Shown: piece by piece, positions 7,470-50,150 of the stretch
Layout of the letters: every line of letters begins with the position of its first letter
Position numbering within the stretch: the first letter of the stretch is position 1
Source of the DNA: a virus
Lineage: Duplodnaviria; Caudoviricetes
Strand: one strand, 5' to 3'
Length of the DNA: 64,000 nt
IMG/VR virus record: IMGVR_UViG_3300047160_036266
Span: 64,001-128,000 of that record
Notes under the pieces: model-generated
What the model was told of the DNA's origin: nothing
Seen by the model: only the letters and a program-made list of their open reading frames with translations
Databases searched by the model: none
Translations under genes and position numbers: made by a program

Positions 7470-7703
7470 CTATAAAACGGCGACTTGATTCTGCGTCTCC
7501 ACCCAGCAGACTGCCCCGCAAGACAGAGGTTTATCAGGCCGATAAACAACACGAGCAACCTCCACGCCCTGGGAGTCGTAGATCACGACTTCCGTGGCGT
7601 AGCGGTTGCTCTTGTAGGTTTTGACGGTGAGTACCGGCTCGCGCTGGCCGGTCTTGCGGTTAGAGCGGATAATTGCCTGGTTGACGTGGATTATCGTTTT
7701 CAT
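7470..7703 (-). CDS. hypothetical protein
   Basis: short ORF in co-directional run; phage-like composition. Confidence 0.6.
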   Translation of the reverse strand: MKTIIHVNQAIIRSNRKTGQREPVLTVKTYKSNRYATEVVIYDSQGVEVARVVYRPDKPLSCGAVCWVETQNQVAVL

Positions 7704-9294
7704 ACCGCTCGAAGAGAGGCGTGGGGCGTCCTAAGTCCACAATATCCCGTGACACCCCTACATTATAATCCCCCTCCGGGAGTCGGCGGTAGAGGAAATC
7801 CTCCAAATAGCCTAAGTCCAAGTCCTCCCAGGACTTCTTGCTCTCGAAAGACTCCCAAATCTTGCGGCTGGTTCCCGGCAGGAACGGCTTCAGCATAATC
7901 GCCGTAACCCGCAGTCCATTCACAAGGTTGCGCAAAATCTGCGCCAGCCGCTCCGGCTCGGATTTGAGGGTCCAGGGCTTCATCTGGTCGATATATTCGT
8001 TCATCTTCCGCAGTTCCGACCAGATCAGCGCCAGGACATGCTTGTACTCACAATTCTCCACGCTCTCGGCATAGTCAGCGAAAGGCGTACCTCCGTGAAG
8101 GATGTTGCGAAAATCGCCCACGCTGGGGATCGAGCCGTCGAAGTATTTCAAGACCATGCTAATGGTGCGTTGGACCAGATTCCCCAGGTTGTTGGCCAGG
8201 TCGGCGTTGTACACATCCACGAAGTTGGCGAAGGTATAATCACCGTCGCTGGCGTAGTTACAGCGGCTCAGGAAATAATAGCGGTAGGCATCGCAGCCGA
8301 ACTCCTTCACCAGTTCCATCGGGTCGAGGAACTTACCGCTCTTGCTGGCCTTCCTGCCCTCGATGTTGATGAAGCCGTGGGCGAAGACCTTCTTGGGAAG
8401 CTCCACGGCGTACATCCGGCCCCCGACCCCCTCGTTGTAGGCCATAATCATGGCGGGCCAGAGTGCGCAGTGGAAACGGGTGATGTCCTTGCCGATGAAA
8501 TGAACGTCAGCGGGCCACCACGTCAGGTCCAGTCCTTCTTTGTCCAAACCCACGCCCGTCATGTAGTTGAGCAGGGCGTCGAACCAGACATAGATCACCT
8601 GGGTTTCGTCCCAGGGAACCGGGATGCCCCAGCCCTCGTTGCGGCGGCTGATGGAAATATCCAGGGGCGGCTCGTCCACCGGCTGCAAATCATAAGAAAC
8701 GAAGTTGACGACCTCGTTGTAGCGCGACTCCGGCTCGATCAGCAAATCCGACAGCCCGTTGGGCTTGGGGGCGAGCATATTCAGCAGCCGGATACGGAAC
8801 TTGGACAGCAGGAAGAAATAGTTCTCCTCCTCCGTGTGGCGAAGCTCCTGCTTCGGGTGGTTCGGGCAGCGGTCGTTCTCGATCTCCTTGGGAGTCTTGA
8901 AGGCTTCGCAGCCATCACAGTAGAGTCCTGAGTAGCGGCGCTTCTCAATATACCCGGCCTCCTTCACCATCTGGATGAAGTGCTGGACGCCTTCCCGGTG
9001 GCGCTGCTCGGTGGTCTGGATGAACTCATCAAAGGAAATGTCCAAGGCACGCCACACGGCTTTGAACTCTTCGGCCATGCGGTCGCAGTACACCTTGGGG
9101 TCTTCGCCAAGCTCACGGGCACGCTTGGCGACCTTCCAGGTATTCTCATCGTTGCCCATCAAAAAGAAAACATCGTCGCCTTTGAAGCGACGATAGCGAG
9201 CTTGCACGTCGGCCCCCACTTTCTCGAACGCCGTGCCAATGTGGGGGCGGCTGTTCGGGTAGTCAATGGCCGTCGTCAGATAAAAGCTGCCCAT
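7660..9294 (-). CDS. metG: methionyl-tRNA synthetase (monomeric type)
   Basis: YLTTAIDYPNSRPHIG (HIGH), GNDE, YVWFDALLNY, HFIGKDITRFH, KASKS (KMSKS), ADLANNLGNL. Confidence 0.96.
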   Translation of the reverse strand: MGSFYLTTAIDYPNSRPHIGTAFEKVGADVQARYRRFKGDDVFFLMGNDENTWKVAKRARELGEDPKVYCDRMAEEFKAVWRALDISFDEFIQTTEQRHREGVQHFIQMVKEAGYIEKRRYSGLYCDGCEAFKTPKEIENDRCPNHPKQELRHTEEENYFFLLSKFRIRLLNMLAPKPNGLSDLLIEPESRYNEVVNFVSYDLQPVDEPPLDISISRRNEGWGIPVPWDETQVIYVWFDALLNYMTGVGLDKEGLDLTWWPADVHFIGKDITRFHCALWPAMIMAYNEGVGGRMYAVELPKKVFAHGFINIEGRKASKSGKFLDPMELVKEFGCDAYRYYFLSRCNYASDGDYTFANFVDVYNADLANNLGNLVQRTISMVLKYFDGSIPSVGDFRNILHGGTPFADYAESVENCEYKHVLALIWSELRKMNEYIDQMKPWTLKSEPERLAQILRNLVNGLRVTAIMLKPFLPGTSRKIWESFESKKSWEDLDLGYLEDFLYRRLPEGDYNVGVSRDIVDLGRPTPLFERYENDNPRQPGNYPL

Positions 9295-28499: not shown

Positions 28500-28729
28500 T
28501 GTTTGAAAAAGAACTATCGGAGGCCACACTGGAGCAGTGCGAGCCGCTAACCGTTATCTTTGCCGAGTACATCCCGGTGGCCGAGATCGAGGATCATGTG
28601 AACGCCCTGAAGCGGTTCTACGCCAGTCTGGGCGGCAAGGTGGAGGACGTTCGTATTTCAATTACGAAGTTACCGGACGGGAGGAACCGGCTGGACTTCA
28701 TTCCCAAGGTGCAACATGGATCATCGTGA
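28499..28729 (+). CDS. hypothetical protein
   Basis: TGATG coupling. Confidence 0.55.
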   Translation: MFEKELSEATLEQCEPLTVIFAEYIPVAEIEDHVNALKRFYASLGGKVEDVRISITKLPDGRNRLDFIPKVQHGSS

Positions 28730-29912
28730 AATCGGGCGGCGACTGGACCTCTTCATGCAGCACGAGCTTGCGCCCGGCTGTCCCATCTGGCTGCCCAACG
28801 GCACCATCCTCTACAACCTCCTGGCCGACCGCATCCGCAAATATAATGCCCAGCACGGCTACCATGAGGTTCGCACGCCGGTCCTGTGGAACCACGAGCT
28901 TTACAAGCTGTCGGGCCATTGGGATCACTACCAGGACTTCATGTTCGGGGTCCACGGGCGCGAGGAAGACAAGCTCTACAGCCTCAAACCGATGAACTGC
29001 CCTGGGCATATGCTCATATACAAGAGCAAGCAGTGGTCCTATCAGGACTTGCCCTACCGGCTCCATGACCAGGGCGTTCTGCACCGGGATGAAACGTCCG
29101 GCGCGATTGGCGGTCTGACCCGCTGCCGGGGGTTCTGCCAGGATGATGGCCACGTCTTCCTGCGGCCCGACCAGATTATGGATGAAGTTCGGGACATGGT
29201 GAAGATGGTGGATAACATCTACACCAACCAGTTTGAAATGCGCGACCTGCGCATGGTCCTTTCCACCCGCCCGGACAAGTTCATGGGCGACTCCGGGGAA
29301 TGGGACCATGCCGAGGCACAACTGAAGCTTGCCCTGCGCGACCACAACTTTACCATCGAAAACGGCGGCGGGGCGTTCTACGGCCCCAAGGTGGACTTCT
29401 TCGTGAAGGACTCCCAGGCCAAGGAGTGGCAGACGGCGACGATCCAACTGGACTTCCAGTTGCCCCAGCGGTTTCAGTTGGAATATACGGACCAGGACGG
29501 CGTGCGCAAGACCCCCGTGGTCATTCACCGGGCCTATTACGGCAGTTTTGAGCGGTTTATCGCCATCGTGCTGGAGCATTACCAGGAGAAACTGCCCTTC
29601 TGGCTGTGTCCGGTGCAGGCGATCTTCCTGCCCATTACCGACCGGCACATCGACTACTGCCGGGTTATGCAGAAGCATTTCGCCGGTGTCCTTCCGGTGC
29701 GCACCGAGGTCGATGAGTCCAACAATCGCATCAGCGCCAAGGTGCTGCACGCCACGGAGCGTATGATCCCCTATATGCTGGTGGTGGGGGATACCGAAGT
29801 CACCAACGACACCCTGAACGTGCGCCATCTCTACGACAAGACCTGGGAAGGCGAAAAGTCGTGGCGCTTGGTGGTGGATCGCTTTTTCGCCCTGGAAAAG
29901 CCGTCGTTTTGA
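28716..29912 (+). CDS. thrS: threonyl-tRNA synthetase lacking N-terminal TGS and editing domains
   Basis: begins at DHREIGRRLDLF; KPMNCPGH, HRDETSG, LTRCRGFCQDDGH, GGAFYGPKVD, TIQLDF, IHRA, anticodon domain PYMLVVGD. Confidence 0.95.
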   Translation: MDHREIGRRLDLFMQHELAPGCPIWLPNGTILYNLLADRIRKYNAQHGYHEVRTPVLWNHELYKLSGHWDHYQDFMFGVHGREEDKLYSLKPMNCPGHMLIYKSKQWSYQDLPYRLHDQGVLHRDETSGAIGGLTRCRGFCQDDGHVFLRPDQIMDEVRDMVKMVDNIYTNQFEMRDLRMVLSTRPDKFMGDSGEWDHAEAQLKLALRDHNFTIENGGGAFYGPKVDFFVKDSQAKEWQTATIQLDFQLPQRFQLEYTDQDGVRKTPVVIHRAYYGSFERFIAIVLEHYQEKLPFWLCPVQAIFLPITDRHIDYCRVMQKHFAGVLPVRTEVDESNNRISAKVLHATERMIPYMLVVGDTEVTNDTLNVRHLYDKTWEGEKSWRLVVDRFFALEKPSF

Positions 29913-33985: not shown

Positions 33986-34336
33986 TTAGCTGGTTGCTGA
34001 GTCTTCGGGAGGGGCCTTATCACCCGGCTGCGGCCCCGAACCATCCTGGGTACTTTTCGACAGCACATCCTTCCCTCCTTTGAGTATGTGGCTGGGATAG
34101 CTTATATAGCCGTCCATGCCCTCTTCTTGCTTCTTCTTCTCGTCGTACTCGAAGAAGGAGGAGTAGTTGTCGTTGATGATGACCTCCAGATCGTGGTGGT
34201 CGATGTAATAATCCTTGTATTTGCGGCGGTCCAGTGGGTCGTAGATGCGGAAGAACAACTGGCCGTCCACACCCCGGAGGAGGAAACCCTTGACGTGGTG
34301 GGCCGGCGTTTCATTGGGCTGGAGGGGTCTTGCCAT
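33986..34336 (-). CDS. hypothetical protein
   Basis: co-directional ORF. Confidence 0.55.
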   Translation of the reverse strand: MARPLQPNETPAHHVKGFLLRGVDGQLFFRIYDPLDRRKYKDYYIDHHDLEVIINDNYSSFFEYDEKKKQEEGMDGYISYPSHILKGGKDVLSKSTQDGSGPQPGDKAPPEDSATS

Positions 34337-35699
34337 GTGACATCACCTTTGGTTCGATTAGGGTTCCAGGCATGAAAATACCCATGTATTCACGCATGTC
34401 GTCGTAGATCGCCCGTAGCGTCCCCGTCATGGGATTCTTCTTGCACTCCTCAATGTGGACATCGCAGAAGTGGTGCCAGAAGAATGTGAAAAGCAGAAAA
34501 CCTGCCTCCGTCCAGTCATATTCCTCGAAGGCGGCGTTAATGCGCTTCTTAAAGTCCAGCCACTCATTCCAGACCGCCTCATTCTTGCCATCGTCAGTCT
34601 GCAAGTCCAAGAAACGCTTGGCGTTGCGCCACTTATTGACGCAGCGCTTGCCATATTCCATGACGACGGGGTTGATGCGGGCGTCGGACCCGACCTGGGG
34701 TTGTGCGGCCCAATAGCGGACGCCATCCGAAGTATGCTGGTCCATATACTTGCCAGGAGGGACGAAGTTGCCAGCCGTCTTGGAAATCTTCTTCCCTTTA
34801 TCGTCCAGAGCGTGCCCGCAGATCACTATGGTTCGCCACGGTATCTGGTCGTTGTGAAGGACGCTTTTGATGATTGTGAAGAGCGCCCAGGTGCGGATAA
34901 TGTCGTGCGCTTGGAAACGAACGTCGAAGATTGGGCATTTGAGAGTGAGTTCGTACTGGTTGGCCTCGTGCCAGGCTAGTTGCGGCGACAGGCTGGACGT
35001 GTGCCAGGTGTCAAAAACGATACCCGGCTCGCCGGGGATGGGGATGCCGTAGTTCCGTTCCCGGCTGATAGACCAGTCCGAATCGCACTGATCCAGCCAG
35101 GAGAGGAGGCGGCCCTTGTACATCTCCGGCTTCCAAACGATCTGGTCAATGGCGGCACGGATGCGGGGCAGGTTGTCGAGGACTTTGATGAACCAACCCT
35201 CACCCCGGCGAAGCTCGACCTTAGCACCACTGCGCTCGTAGCAACCGTCTTCGGTCAACTCATTTTGGGAGACGGAAACCTTGGTGAGCGGGCAGTAGTA
35301 GTATTCCCGCTCGGCCTTATACGCCTGGCCCTTGTCCACCAAGTCCTTGAAGGACAGTTCGGCCAGTTTGATGGCGAAGGGGCAGAAGGTGGTGTAGTGG
35401 TGCCAGGACCAGGCCATTGCCAGGCGCATGAAGAGAAGGTGGTAAGCGATGGACTCGTGGTAGGAAAAGTCAATGATCTTGTCCTGGTCGGTGATTCCAG
35501 CGGCCTGGGCGAGCTTTTCGGTGGGCAACCCGTTGTTGTCGTAGCAATAGGGGTAGACTAGGTATTCGCCCTTGATGTGGCGGTGGTAACGGGCAATGAA
35601 GTCCATTTGGGCGTAGCTGAAGACGTGCCCCATGTGGAGGTTGCCGCTAATCGTAGGCGGCGGACAGTCGATGAGAAAGCGTTTGTTCTTGTCGTGCAT
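34311..35699 (-). CDS. valS: minimal valyl-tRNA synthetase (462 aa, no CP1 editing domain, no coiled coil)
   Basis: PPPTISGNLHMGH, DNNGLPTE, DWSISRERNYGIPIP, FDTWHTSS, FQAHDIIRTW, KISKT, FFWHHFCDVHIE. Confidence 0.9.
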   Translation of the reverse strand: MHDKNKRFLIDCPPPTISGNLHMGHVFSYAQMDFIARYHRHIKGEYLVYPYCYDNNGLPTEKLAQAAGITDQDKIIDFSYHESIAYHLLFMRLAMAWSWHHYTTFCPFAIKLAELSFKDLVDKGQAYKAEREYYYCPLTKVSVSQNELTEDGCYERSGAKVELRRGEGWFIKVLDNLPRIRAAIDQIVWKPEMYKGRLLSWLDQCDSDWSISRERNYGIPIPGEPGIVFDTWHTSSLSPQLAWHEANQYELTLKCPIFDVRFQAHDIIRTWALFTIIKSVLHNDQIPWRTIVICGHALDDKGKKISKTAGNFVPPGKYMDQHTSDGVRYWAAQPQVGSDARINPVVMEYGKRCVNKWRNAKRFLDLQTDDGKNEAVWNEWLDFKKRINAAFEEYDWTEAGFLLFTFFWHHFCDVHIEECKKNPMTGTLRAIYDDMREYMGIFMPGTLIEPKVMSHGKTPPAQ

Positions 35700-35857
35700 G
35701 GTGGGTTTGTCCGGTGAGAGAGCGTGTGGAAACGACGGGGCCACGCTCCTCCACGGAGACGCAGCCCGAAGCCACGCCCACACGGACAACAAAACTAGCC
35801 GCAAGAACGGTCATGTAGGTATTATACGTCAGTGTCGCTCAAAACGCTACCCGAAAA

Positions 35858-35952
35858 TGCCCAGGGCGGGACTCGAACCCGCACGGGAGTTACCTCCCAC
35901 GGGATTTTAAGCCGACTTAAATCCCGTGTGTCTACCATTCCACCACCTGGGC
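35858..35952 (-). tRNA. tRNA-Leu(UAA) with 10-nt insertion in anticodon loop
   Basis: GCCCAGG/CCUGGGC acceptor, GGUA D-loop, long variable arm, UUCGAGU T-loop; anticodon loop is 17 nt UUUAAGUCGGCUUAAAA. Confidence 0.9.
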
Positions 35953-48866: not shown

Positions 48867-50150
48867 TTATACCGGCTTCCTGTCGGGCTGTAAAGCGATT
48901 CCGGGCGCGAAGCAGCGCAGCATGGGTAGCAGGGCTTCGACCGTCTGGGCGGAAGGTTTCTGCCCCTTATTCTTGTTGTAAAACTCCATGAGGGTCGAGA
49001 CAACCTTGTTGACCTTCCAACTACGCATGTAGTGATGGAGATTGGCGTGCAGGTCGGTGAGGTCGATGTCGTCTTGTCCCGGTTCGGCCAGCCAGCGGCG
49101 CAGTCGGCCCAGGAACCGGCGGATACCCGTAATGGCCTTATCATCCCAATCGCCGCCGTCCTGGTATGGCCCCAGGAACATGAGGTAGAGGCGCAGTTCA
49201 TCCGGGTCGTAGGCGTCCGGGTTGACGGCGTTGCCCTTGCTCTTCCCCATCTTGGCCCCGCCCGCCGTAATCATACCCTGGTGGATCACCTGTTTGAACG
49301 GTTCCTCCTCTTGCACGATCCCCTGGTCGTAGAGGAACATATTGATGAAGCGGGCGTAAATCAGGTGCATACAGGCGTGTTCCGGCCCGCCTACATACAG
49401 GTCCACTTGCTGATATTTCTCCGGGTGCAGGAACGTGTCCGAATCGTTTTCAAGATACCGGAGGAAATAAAAGCTGGAATCCACGAAGGTGTCCAGCGTG
49501 TCGGTTTCGCCCTCGACGGGGATCGGACAGCCCCAGCGGCGCTGGCGGGAAACGCACCAGTCGTGCAGGTTCTCCAGCCAGGCCCGCTGCTGGTTGAGGG
49601 TGCCGATGGGGTAGTCGATCTTGTCCAGGTTGGCGATCAGGCGGTCCTTGTAAGCCGTGGTGCGGAAGAACCACTGGTTGAGCGACCGCTGTTCAATCTT
49701 GGCCTGGCAGCGCTCGCAAAAGCCGCCGCCACACTGCTCTTTGGCCAGTACGGTGTCGCAGGACGGGCAGTAGTTGACGGGACCGAAGGCTTTGTAGGCC
49801 AGGCCGTTCTCGCGCAGCAGGGTAAAGAGCCATTGCGTCCATTTGATGTAGGATGGGTCGCACGTCACCAGTTTTTCCTGGTACACCGTGTTCATGTGTC
49901 GCATCTGGCCCCGGAAGCGTTCGATGTTGGCCCAGGTAACGGTGGCCGGGTCGCCGCCGATGGAACGGGCGTAGTTCTCGGCGGGCAGGCCGAAAGCGTC
50001 GTAGCCAAAGGGCTGGAAGACCTCGATGCCCAGGTAGCGCAGCCACCGGCAGTACGAGTCCACGATGGCGTAGTTGTAGTAGTGCCCCAGGTGCAGGCCG
50101 GCACCGGAGGGATACGGGAACATGACGCAGCAGTAGAATGGCTTGCTCAT
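48867..50150 (-). CDS. leuS: minimal leucyl-tRNA synthetase (427 aa; no CP1, no LS domain, no C-terminal domain)
   Basis: MFPYPSGAGLHLGH, GYDAFGLPAEN, QWFF, DWCVSRQRRWGCPIP, DTLDTFVDSSFYFLRY, YVGGPEHACMHLIYARF, KMGKSKGN. Confidence 0.95.
   Translation of the reverse strand: MSKPFYCCVMFPYPSGAGLHLGHYYNYAIVDSYCRWLRYLGIEVFQPFGYDAFGLPAENYARSIGGDPATVTWANIERFRGQMRHMNTVYQEKLVTCDPSYIKWTQWLFTLLRENGLAYKAFGPVNYCPSCDTVLAKEQCGGGFCERCQAKIEQRSLNQWFFRTTAYKDRLIANLDKIDYPIGTLNQQRAWLENLHDWCVSRQRRWGCPIPVEGETDTLDTFVDSSFYFLRYLENDSDTFLHPEKYQQVDLYVGGPEHACMHLIYARFINMFLYDQGIVQEEEPFKQVIHQGMITAGGAKMGKSKGNAVNPDAYDPDELRLYLMFLGPYQDGGDWDDKAITGIRRFLGRLRRWLAEPGQDDIDLTDLHANLHHYMRSWKVNKVVSTLMEFYNKNKGQKPSAQTVEALLPMLRCFAPGIALQPDRKPV

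What the first reader, a model, noticed from the sequence alone, without database searches (positions are those of the whole stretch)
34311..35699. 462-aa ValRS lacking the CP1 editing domain and C-terminal coiled coil
Seen: YYYCPLTKVSVSQNEL runs directly into GCYERSGAKVE...WFI with no CP1, and the protein ends after the helical domain. Established: ValRS relies on CP1 to clear Thr-tRNAVal. Inference: an error-prone or specialised synthetase, and an alternative candidate for charging the class-I-shaped A35/A73 atypical tRNAs.
Basis: partly seen in the sequence, partly recalled or inferred. Interest (0 to 1): 0.6.

Follow-up and report, generated by a model that had tools for sequence, protein, structure and literature searches.

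The report
Half-size phage valyl-tRNA synthetase
A giant soil phage encodes a valine-charging enzyme cut to about half normal size, with an intact catalytic site but no proofreading module and no tRNA-gripping tail; it belongs to a large conserved phage family, and a cultured phage has made the same cuts independently.

Summary
Window 34311-35699 (minus strand) encodes a 462-aa class Ia synthetase whose best profile and best structural match are ValRS (PRK13208-type; 1GAX Z 35, rmsd 2.2 A). It lacks the CP1 editing domain, a 37-aa zinc-ribbon insert, the N-terminal extension and everything after the helix bundle.

HIGH, KMSKS and the residues that line the valine pocket are conserved, so it is neither dead nor another specificity. 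dN/dS is about 0.11. More than 100 sequence clusters of 423-492 aa exist, many on 0.5-0.67 Mb phage contigs.

Stenotrophomonas phage RAS14 (cultured) carries a 449-aa ValRS derived from the other, bacterial, ValRS type. It has the same two cuts, so the trimming is convergent.

The suggested link to the armless Leu-anticodon tRNAs is not supported. Two complete huge phages carry the enzyme without such tRNAs. Those tRNAs lack C36 and two of them share acceptor stems with the phage's own tRNA-Leu.

Most likely it is an editing-free ValRS that charges ordinary tRNA-Val. The scan found this family before on other DNA (e1-5361032). I found no description in the literature I searched. It is a new variant of a known kind, of moderate interest.

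The parts
34311..35699 (-). Mini-ValRS coding sequence, 462 aa plus stop
   Evidence: ORF and translation. NCBIfam PRK13208 ValRS 337.6 bits, E 1.5e-100. Start agrees with homologues. AF2 pLDDT 92.7. 1GAX Z 35.0.
35625..35663 (-). P13-P14-P15-T-I-S-G-N-L-H22-M-G-H25: valine-pocket prolines and the HIGH motif
   Evidence: Aligns to 1GAX P41-P43...H50MGH53. P13, P14, H22, G24 and H25 are at least 90% conserved in both the mini family and full-length ValRS. P0270 has PPPTVSG...HIGH.
35232..35291 (-). Junction where CP1 is missing (C137...E155-R156; TEDGC bridges the two half-strands)
   Evidence: Residue 148 aligns to P0270 193 and residue 154 to P0270 346. Residue 150 aligns to about 1GAX 190 and residue 158 to 1GAX 348. 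The model shows a beta-hairpin, E141-143 and E162-171.
34776..34790 (-). KMSKS motif (K304-I-S-K307-T)
   Evidence: Aligns to KMSKS of 1GAX and P0270. K307 is invariant and K304 at least 90% conserved in the family.
34359..34670 (-). Four-helix anticodon-binding bundle (residues 344-447); the protein ends 15 residues later
   Evidence: Helices 344-366, 374-392, 396-421 and 425-442. Pfam Anticodon_1 matches only profile positions 5-80 of 148. Model residue 450 corresponds to 1GAX 693. K356, N359, A360, F407, W408, E417 and K420 are shared with full-length ValRS.
33986..34336 (-). Conserved 116-aa neighbour of unknown fold; overlaps the ValRS stop by 26 nt (tentative member of the unit)
   Evidence: Adjacent to the mini-ValRS in L007/L008 and L009 (downstream) and in L010, L018 and L039 (upstream). 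Family of 45, no Pfam or PHROG hit. AF2 pLDDT 78, no PDB fold match above Z 3.
35858..35952 (-). Long-arm tRNA-Leu gene 158 nt upstream on the same strand (context only)
   Evidence: ARAGORN and Rfam. A TATAAT lies between it and the ValRS start.

Best explanation
This is a working, minimal valyl-tRNA synthetase of a huge (about 0.67 Mb) soil phage.

What it keeps: the Rossmann catalytic core, the small connective hairpin, the stem-contact fold and the helical anticodon-binding bundle. That gives it the overall shape of a minimal monomeric MetRS with a ValRS active site.

Proposed mechanism:
- It activates valine with ATP and transfers it to tRNA-Val.
- It finds tRNA-Val mainly through the anticodon (A35, C36) and A73.
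- The substrate is most likely the host's tRNA-Val in this lineage, and phage-encoded tRNA-Val in relatives that carry such genes.
- Without CP1 it cannot hydrolyse Thr-tRNA-Val in cis, so its product pool should be less accurate unless the host's enzymes clean it up.

Shown here: the architecture, conservation of the active site, purifying selection, a wide phage distribution and convergent origin.
Inferred, not shown: catalytic activity, the tRNA substrate and the error rate.
For: - Identity. ValRS profiles score best: PRK13208 337.6 bits, against IleRS 148, MetRS 86 and LeuRS 84. The 120 closest longer relatives carry ValRS domains, and those that are named are called valine--tRNA ligase. 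The best structural match is ValRS 1GAX, Z 35.0, rmsd 2.2 A, 438 residues.
- Active site. HIGH (H22-M-G-H25) and KMSKS (K304-I-S-K-T) are present. P13, P14, D54, W232, I267 and W271 align to 1GAX P41, P42, D81, W456, I491 and W495 (that these line the valine pocket is from my memory of Fukai et al. 2000). In the 45-sequence family alignment D54, W232, I267 and W271 are invariant and P13 and P14 at least 90% conserved. 69 positions are at least 90% conserved with the same residue in both the mini family and 23 full-length ValRS; only 7 are fixed differences.
- Selection and spread. dN/dS is 0.11-0.12 against two homologues. At least 119 clusters of 423-492 aa show 44-80% identity, on contigs up to 673 kb. 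A published 634,780-bp huge phage, LR745206.1, carries one.
- Sufficiency of the shape. Foldseek's top hits are minimal MetRS (1A8H, TM 0.82/0.76).
- Convergence. Phage RAS14's 449-aa ValRS is of bacterial type (PRK05729 314 bits against PRK13208 173). It aligns to 1GAX 15-167, 360-414 and 449-690. It falls in the bacterial-type clade (SH-aLRT 100), while the window's protein falls in the other clade (100).
- Substrate. The three complete huge phages with the enzyme carry 2-4 canonical tRNA-Val genes.
Against: - No biochemical or expression data exist.
- The protein scores far below NCBIfam's ValRS cut-off (337.6 against 738 bits), because half the architecture is missing.
- From memory, removing the C-terminal tRNA-binding parts of bacterial ValRS strongly lowers activity, so activity of the bare core is not guaranteed.
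- No tRNA-Val gene was found in the 343-kb record. The record is only about 69% complete.
- No Shine-Dalgarno sequence is evident before the ATG.
- I could not check which residues contact A35 and C36.
Confidence: 0.72

Rival explanations
1. Specialised charger of the phage's armless Leu-anticodon tRNAs. Having lost the domains that check the tRNA body, the enzyme valylates the 74-nt A35/A73 tRNAs, so that some Leu codons are read as Val.
For: The armless tRNAs carry A35 and A73, two of the main valine determinants. This record holds ten Leu-anticodon tRNAs but no tRNA-Val. G001 and G005 carry both the mini-ValRS and armless tRNA-Leu.
Against: G002 and G003, both complete, carry the mini-ValRS. 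They have only 80-88-nt tRNA-Leu in the tRNA regions I fetched, plus canonical tRNA-Val. C36 is missing from all five armless tRNAs. Two of them share the acceptor stem and A73 with the phage's long-arm tRNA-Leu, and a mini-LeuRS is encoded 13 kb away. The conserved positions of the anticodon-binding helices equal those of ordinary ValRS.
Confidence: 0.04
2. Two-gene enzyme. The conserved small neighbour (116 aa here) is a trans-acting subunit that supplies a lost function, such as a tRNA handle or a proofreading surrogate.
For: The small gene lies next to the mini-ValRS in six loci even though its side changes: downstream in L007/L008 and L009, upstream in L010, L018 and L039. It overlaps the ValRS stop codon here. 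Two distant family members lie one or two genes from a 544-548-aa MetRS-like gene.
Against: It was not detected (E below 1e-3) next to the mini-ValRS in L011-L017, including complete G002 and G003. No known domain or fold was recognised. Translation genes cluster in these phages, so adjacency may be incidental.
Confidence: 0.1
3. Non-canonical role. The enzyme is a tRNA-Val binder or decoy, or an aminoacyl-adenylate-forming enzyme for a substrate other than tRNA, like other truncated synthetase paralogues.
For: Truncated aaRS paralogues with other jobs exist (cited in PMC9437257). The score is well below the ValRS family cut-off.
Against: It retains KMSKS, the stem-contact fold and the anticodon-binding bundle, with ValRS-type conserved residues. 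It sits among tRNA genes and other synthetase genes. The same core arose twice from true ValRS lineages.
Confidence: 0.08
4. Changed amino-acid specificity: threonine, isoleucine or a non-protein amino acid instead of valine.
For: Seven positions are fixed differently from full-length ValRS. One is C52 (Gly in ValRS), two residues before the Asp that binds the amino group.
Against: All six pocket positions are ValRS-like, including the first proline where IleRS has glycine (the IleRS residue is from memory). The IleRS profile scores less than half the ValRS profile.
Confidence: 0.05

Closest known systems
PRK13208-type (archaeal-like) valyl-tRNA synthetase; structural reference T. thermophilus ValRS-tRNA complex, PDB 1GAX
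   Same: Same catalytic core, motifs (PPPT-SG, HxGH, DWSISR, FDTW, FQAHDIIRTWA, KxSKS) and helix bundle. 36-37% identity to P0270 over the shared parts. Z 35.0 and rmsd 2.2 A to 1GAX.
   Different: Lacks the N-terminal ~36 residues, CP1 (~152 aa), a 37-aa zinc-ribbon insert and the last ~160 residues (second half of Anticodon_1 plus tail). 462 aa against about 800-860 aa. Scores below the family cut-off.
Mycoplasma mobile LeuRS (PDB 3ZIU), a natural class Ia synthetase without CP1
   Same: Natural loss of the post-transfer editing domain in a host-dependent genome. Structural match Z 31.1. Fits the reported loss of editing in host-restricted organisms (PMC11415595).
   Different: Different amino acid. 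MmLeuRS (637 aa) keeps its C-terminal tRNA-binding domain, while this enzyme has lost that as well.
Minimal monomeric MetRS (T. thermophilus 1A8H, A. aeolicus 2CT8 with tRNA)
   Same: Same four-module architecture and size. Foldseek TM 0.82/0.76 and Z 31.6-32.5. Both systems rely on anticodon reading.
   Different: About 21% identity. The MetRS profile scores 86 bits against 337 for ValRS. The pocket residues are ValRS-type.
Stenotrophomonas phage RAS14 / CM1 'valyl-tRNA synthetase' (WAX21612.1, 449 aa; cultured jumbo phages)
   Same: Same two cuts: CP1 gone and chain ending at about 1GAX residue 690. Phage-encoded.
   Different: Derived from bacterial-type ValRS (PPPN, GYDILYFW; PRK05729 is the best hit). 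24.7% identity to the window's protein. Sits in the other major ValRS clade. It is therefore an independent reduction.

Membership tests
Valyl-tRNA synthetase (class Ia) | Class I signature motifs HIGH and KMSKS | tested here: met
   H22-M-G-H25 and K304-I-S-K307-T are present. H22, G24, H25 and K307 are conserved across the family.
Valyl-tRNA synthetase (class Ia) | Valine-sized pocket: residues equivalent to 1GAX P41, P42, D81, W456, I491, W495 | tested here: met
   P13, P14, D54, W232, I267 and W271 by alignment to 1GAX. They are invariant or at least 90% conserved. That these residues form the pocket is from my memory of the 1GAX paper.
Valyl-tRNA synthetase (class Ia) | ValRS profile is the best match and reaches NCBIfam's curated cut-off | tested here: not met
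   ValRS (PRK13208) is the best match, but at 337.6 bits against a cut-off of 738. The shortfall is due to the missing domains.
Valyl-tRNA synthetase (class Ia) | CP1 post-transfer editing domain | tested here: not met
   About 152 residues (P0270 194-345) are replaced by 5. No free-standing copy was found in the 343-kb record.
Valyl-tRNA synthetase (class Ia) | Complete anticodon-binding region with C-terminal junction domain (full Pfam Anticodon_1) | tested here: not met
   Anticodon_1 matches only profile positions 5-80 of 148, at 24.0 bits against a cut-off of 25.1. P0270 matches positions 1-147. The model ends at 1GAX 693.
Valyl-tRNA synthetase (class Ia) | Helix-bundle anticodon-binding domain with ValRS-type conserved residues | tested here: met
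   Four helices, 344-442. K356, N359, A360, F407, W408, E417 and K420 are shared with full-length ValRS.
Valyl-tRNA synthetase (class Ia) | Valylates tRNA-Val | not testable with these tools
   Needs an aminoacylation assay.
Isoleucyl-tRNA synthetase | IleRS profile is the best match; glycine at the first pocket position | tested here: not met
   ileS scores 148 bits against ValRS 337. The protein has proline (P13) at that position.
Methionyl-tRNA synthetase (minimal form) | MetRS profile is the best match | tested here: not met
   MetRS profiles score 79-87 bits. Only the overall shape is shared. The phage has a separate 544-aa MetRS.

The most novel reading that the evidence does not exclude
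In this phage lineage, the sequence available holds ten Leu-anticodon tRNAs and no tRNA-Val. The stripped ValRS has lost the domains that inspect the tRNA body. It may therefore valylate the armless A35/A73 tRNAs, so that the phage partly reads leucine codons as valine. That would be a virus-encoded sense-codon reassignment pair.
Probability: 0.04. Interest if true: 0.9.

Novelty: new variant of a known kind. Interest (0 to 1): 0.5.

Why it matters
ValRS is a textbook case of a synthetase that needs a proofreading domain, because threonine fits its active site.

This large family is under selection and has dispensed with that domain and with the C-terminal tRNA-binding part. Phages reached the same roughly 450-aa core twice, from different ValRS lineages. 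Together these argue that the core is a self-sufficient unit in an infected cell.

If it is active, three things follow:
- It defines a natural minimal ValRS, useful for work on synthetase evolution and as a compact part for engineered translation.
- Phage proteins may be made with relaxed accuracy, extending to viruses the loss of editing seen in host-restricted cells.
- The cultured Stenotrophomonas phages make both points testable at the bench.

The same record also encodes a LeuRS and a ThrRS without their editing domains. The pattern therefore looks like a property of the phage's whole charging toolkit, not of one gene.

Tried and rejected
- Complex prediction of the mini-ValRS with the 116-aa neighbour gave no support and no verdict. 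It is not used as evidence either way.
- The search of sequencing runs listed no RNA holder, so there is nothing on expression. Two soil-metagenome runs hold at least half of the words.
- The fold of the small neighbour was not identified. The Atlas gave only TM 0.32-0.40 hits on a poor model. The wide VIA search gave a best Z of 3.0. There was no Pfam or PHROG hit.
- tblastn of six full-length ValRS against the 343-kb record found no separate CP1 or C-terminal piece. PF10458, the stand-alone ValRS arm, gave only 12.4 bits, E 0.066, below its cut-off.
- The look-up of encoding contigs did not return the 669,797-bp contig that carries the identical protein. I could not scan it for tRNA-Val.
- Six literature searches found no description of CP1-less phage ValRS. 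Two key papers were not held: Fukai 2003 and Melnikov 2018.
- The longer TTG start at 35804 was rejected because homologues begin 2-8 residues before the YLID motif.
- The placement of the mini family relative to full-length ValRS differed between my two quick trees: outside the sampled set, nested near Rickettsiales-type sequences. I claim no donor.

Full report
**Observation.** On the minus strand an open frame runs from 35804 to 34311. The ATG at 35699 gives a 462-aa protein, and this start matches 44 homologues, which begin 2-8 residues before the conserved YLID-PPPTISG motif. Pfam finds the class I catalytic domain (E 7.6e-44) and only a sub-threshold half match to the anticodon-binding domain (profile positions 5-80 of 148). 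NCBIfam ranks ValRS models first: PRK13208 at 337.6 bits, then alt_ValS 248 and valS 213. IleRS scores 148, MetRS 86 and LeuRS 84. All are below the full-length cut-offs.

**Anatomy.** I compared the protein with the closest full-length relative, P0270 (819 aa, PRK13208 score 1078).
- Residues 5-148 align to P0270 41-193.
- Residues 154-420 align to P0270 346-660, with a 37-residue gap opposite P0270 416-452.

Four pieces are therefore missing:
- an N-terminal extension of about 36 residues;
- CP1, about 152 residues, replaced by TEDGC;
- a cysteine-rich insert in the second half of the Rossmann fold;
- about 160 C-terminal residues.

The alignment to 1GAX says the same. An AlphaFold model built on 45 family members is confident (pLDDT 92.7). 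Its best structural match is ValRS 1GAX (Z 35.0, rmsd 2.2 A, 438 residues, model 2-450 on chain 30-693). By overall shape it resembles minimal MetRS (1A8H, TM 0.82/0.76).

One correction to the finding. Four relatives of the parent type have a full Anticodon_1 domain but no PF10458 coiled coil. The C-terminal loss is thus the junction domain and tail, not demonstrably a coiled coil.

**Is it alive, and is it ValRS?** HIGH (HMGH) and KMSKS (KISKT) are present. The residues that align to 1GAX P41, P42, D81, W456, I491 and W495 are P13, P14, D54, W232, I267 and W271, and all are invariant or nearly so in the family. From my memory of the 1GAX paper, these line the valine pocket. Comparing 28 mini sequences with 23 full-length ValRS:
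- 69 positions are at least 90% conserved with the same residue in both groups, including seven in the anticodon-binding helices;
- only seven positions are fixed differently.

The motifs that looked odd against bacterial ValRS (PPPT instead of PPPN; FQAHDIIRTWA) are simply those of the PRK13208 type. Nei-Gojobori dN/dS against two homologues of about 80% identity is 0.11-0.12.

**Family and origin.** The near-length search lists 120 clusters with 44-80% identity. All but one are 423-492 aa. Many lie on contigs of 0.5-0.67 Mb, and the window's own protein lies on a 669,797-bp contig. The window is part of a 343-kb IMG/VR record judged 69% complete. A published 634,780-bp huge phage (LR745206.1) has a 46%-identical copy. 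The huge-phage paper reports up to 15 synthetases per genome, and its passages on synthetases do not mention this architecture. A 'Nanoarchaeota' contig with a family member looks like a misbinned phage.

In trees the main family is one clade (SH-aLRT 100). It lies in the PRK13208-type half of ValRS (100), but its exact position moved between two quick trees.

CP1 has been lost more than once:
- A 645-aa phage protein (P0210) lacks CP1 but keeps the C-terminus.
- A clade of 483-673-aa proteins in cellular-looking context does the same.
- Stenotrophomonas phage RAS14, a cultured 319,635-bp phage, encodes a 449-aa ValRS of bacterial type (PRK05729 314 bits against PRK13208 173). It aligns to 1GAX 15-167, 360-414 and 449-690 and sits in the bacterial-type clade (100).

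Two deep ValRS lineages have thus been trimmed in phages to the same core with the same C-terminal end point.

**tRNA partner.** ARAGORN and Rfam find no tRNA-Val in the 343-kb record. They find:
- five long-arm tRNA-Leu;
- five armless Leu-anticodon tRNAs;
- Phe, Ser and Tyr tRNAs;
- a tmRNA.

The record also encodes MetRS and ThrRS without matching tRNAs, so synthetases and tRNAs are not paired one to one. The three complete huge phages with the mini-ValRS carry 4, 3 and 2 tRNA-Val genes. These have a GG D-loop, a TTC T-loop, A35, C36 and A73. Armless tRNA-Leu occur in G001 and G005. They were not found in G002 and G003, within the regions fetched, which hold 62 of 68 and 49 of 55 tRNA hits.

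Valine identity rests on A35, C36 and A73 (PMC9976931). The armless tRNAs have G36 or A36, and two share acceptor stem and discriminator with the phage's own tRNA-Leu. I therefore do not support the proposed link. The host's tRNA-Val is the likeliest substrate here.

**Neighbour.** The 116-aa ORF at 33986-34336 overlaps the ValRS stop codon. Homologues lie next to the mini-ValRS in six loci, on either side of it. Two distant members lie near a MetRS-like gene. The family has 45 members and no recognised domain or fold. It is absent beside the gene in L011-L017. It may be an accessory factor, but I hold that loosely.

**Mechanism and rivals.** Best reading (0.72): an editing-free ValRS that reads the anticodon with its helix bundle, as minimal MetRS does, and charges ordinary tRNA-Val. 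No CP1 piece or ValRS arm is encoded separately in the record. Thr-tRNA-Val would therefore go uncorrected unless host enzymes act on it. This extends the known loss of editing in host-restricted organisms (PMC11415595). The same window holds a LeuRS and a ThrRS that also lack their editing domains.

Rivals:
- a two-gene enzyme with the neighbour (0.10);
- a non-canonical role (0.08);
- altered amino-acid specificity (0.05);
- charging of the armless tRNAs (0.04).

**Novelty and limits.** Six searches of the held literature found no description of this architecture. Gene callers already label members 'valyl-tRNA synthetase'. This scan noted the family earlier in another phage (e1-5361032). Nothing here shows activity, substrate or error rate. 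The record is incomplete, and the deep phylogeny is unresolved.

Noticed in passing
window 33986-34336 (-): 116-aa ORF overlapping the ValRS stop codon. Its roughly 75-aa core is conserved in a 45-member family without known domain or fold. It lies beside the mini-ValRS in six loci (either side) and near a MetRS-like gene in two more.
   Followed up: partly
L044:2387-3733 (Stenotrophomonas phage RAS14, OP752703.1; also CM1, OP883945.1): A cultured jumbo phage encodes a 449-aa bacterial-type ValRS with the same CP1 and C-terminal cuts. This is an independent reduction and a ready experimental system.
   Followed up: partly
L036:8001-10022 (P0141) and relatives P0135, P0158, P0161, P0168, P0170: A clade of 483-673-aa ValRS lacks CP1; the 570-673-aa members scanned keep the C-terminal region. 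Two reach the PRK13208 cut-off. The one context examined is cellular-looking (ABC transporter, guanylate kinase, CysRS). These may be cellular organisms with an editing-less ValRS.
   Followed up: partly
L052:8001-9938 (P0210): A 645-aa phage-context ValRS lacks CP1 but has a full Anticodon_1 domain. It groups with the mini family in an unresolved fork and may be an intermediate stage of the reduction.
   Followed up: partly
L043 (JBBTAT010000003.1, labelled Nanoarchaeota MAG): The contig has a mini-ValRS next to a 429-aa mini-LeuRS, a 498-aa class I and a class II synthetase, all on one strand among many small ORFs. It looks like a huge-phage contig binned as an archaeon.
   Followed up: partly
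L019-L029 (records G001, G002): ARAGORN calls three (G001) and two (G002) tRNAs with anticodon CUA and one with UCA (G002). These suppressor-type tRNAs may point to stop-codon recoding in those huge phages.
   Followed up: no
window 7660-9294 (-), 28716-29912 (+), 48867-50150 (-): The same window encodes a 544-aa MetRS, a 398-aa ThrRS that matches only positions 172-545 of the ThrRS profile (N-terminal editing region absent) and a 427-aa LeuRS without CP1 and the C-terminal domain. The stripping affects several synthetases at once.
   Followed up: partly
L018:9600-11341: In this 146-kb record both the mini-ValRS and the small neighbour are split across frames. These are either assembly indels or decaying copies.
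   Followed up: no
window 35812-35857 (-): A perfect TATAAT lies just after the tRNA-Leu gene and about 120 nt before the ValRS start. No Shine-Dalgarno-like sequence precedes the ATG.
   Followed up: no
L045:1387-3447 (Paceibacterota MAG): The bacterial-type ValRS of this CPR bacterium is only 687 aa in the open frame and is the nearest cellular sequence to the RAS14 mini-ValRS in my tree. It may also be shortened.
   Followed up: no
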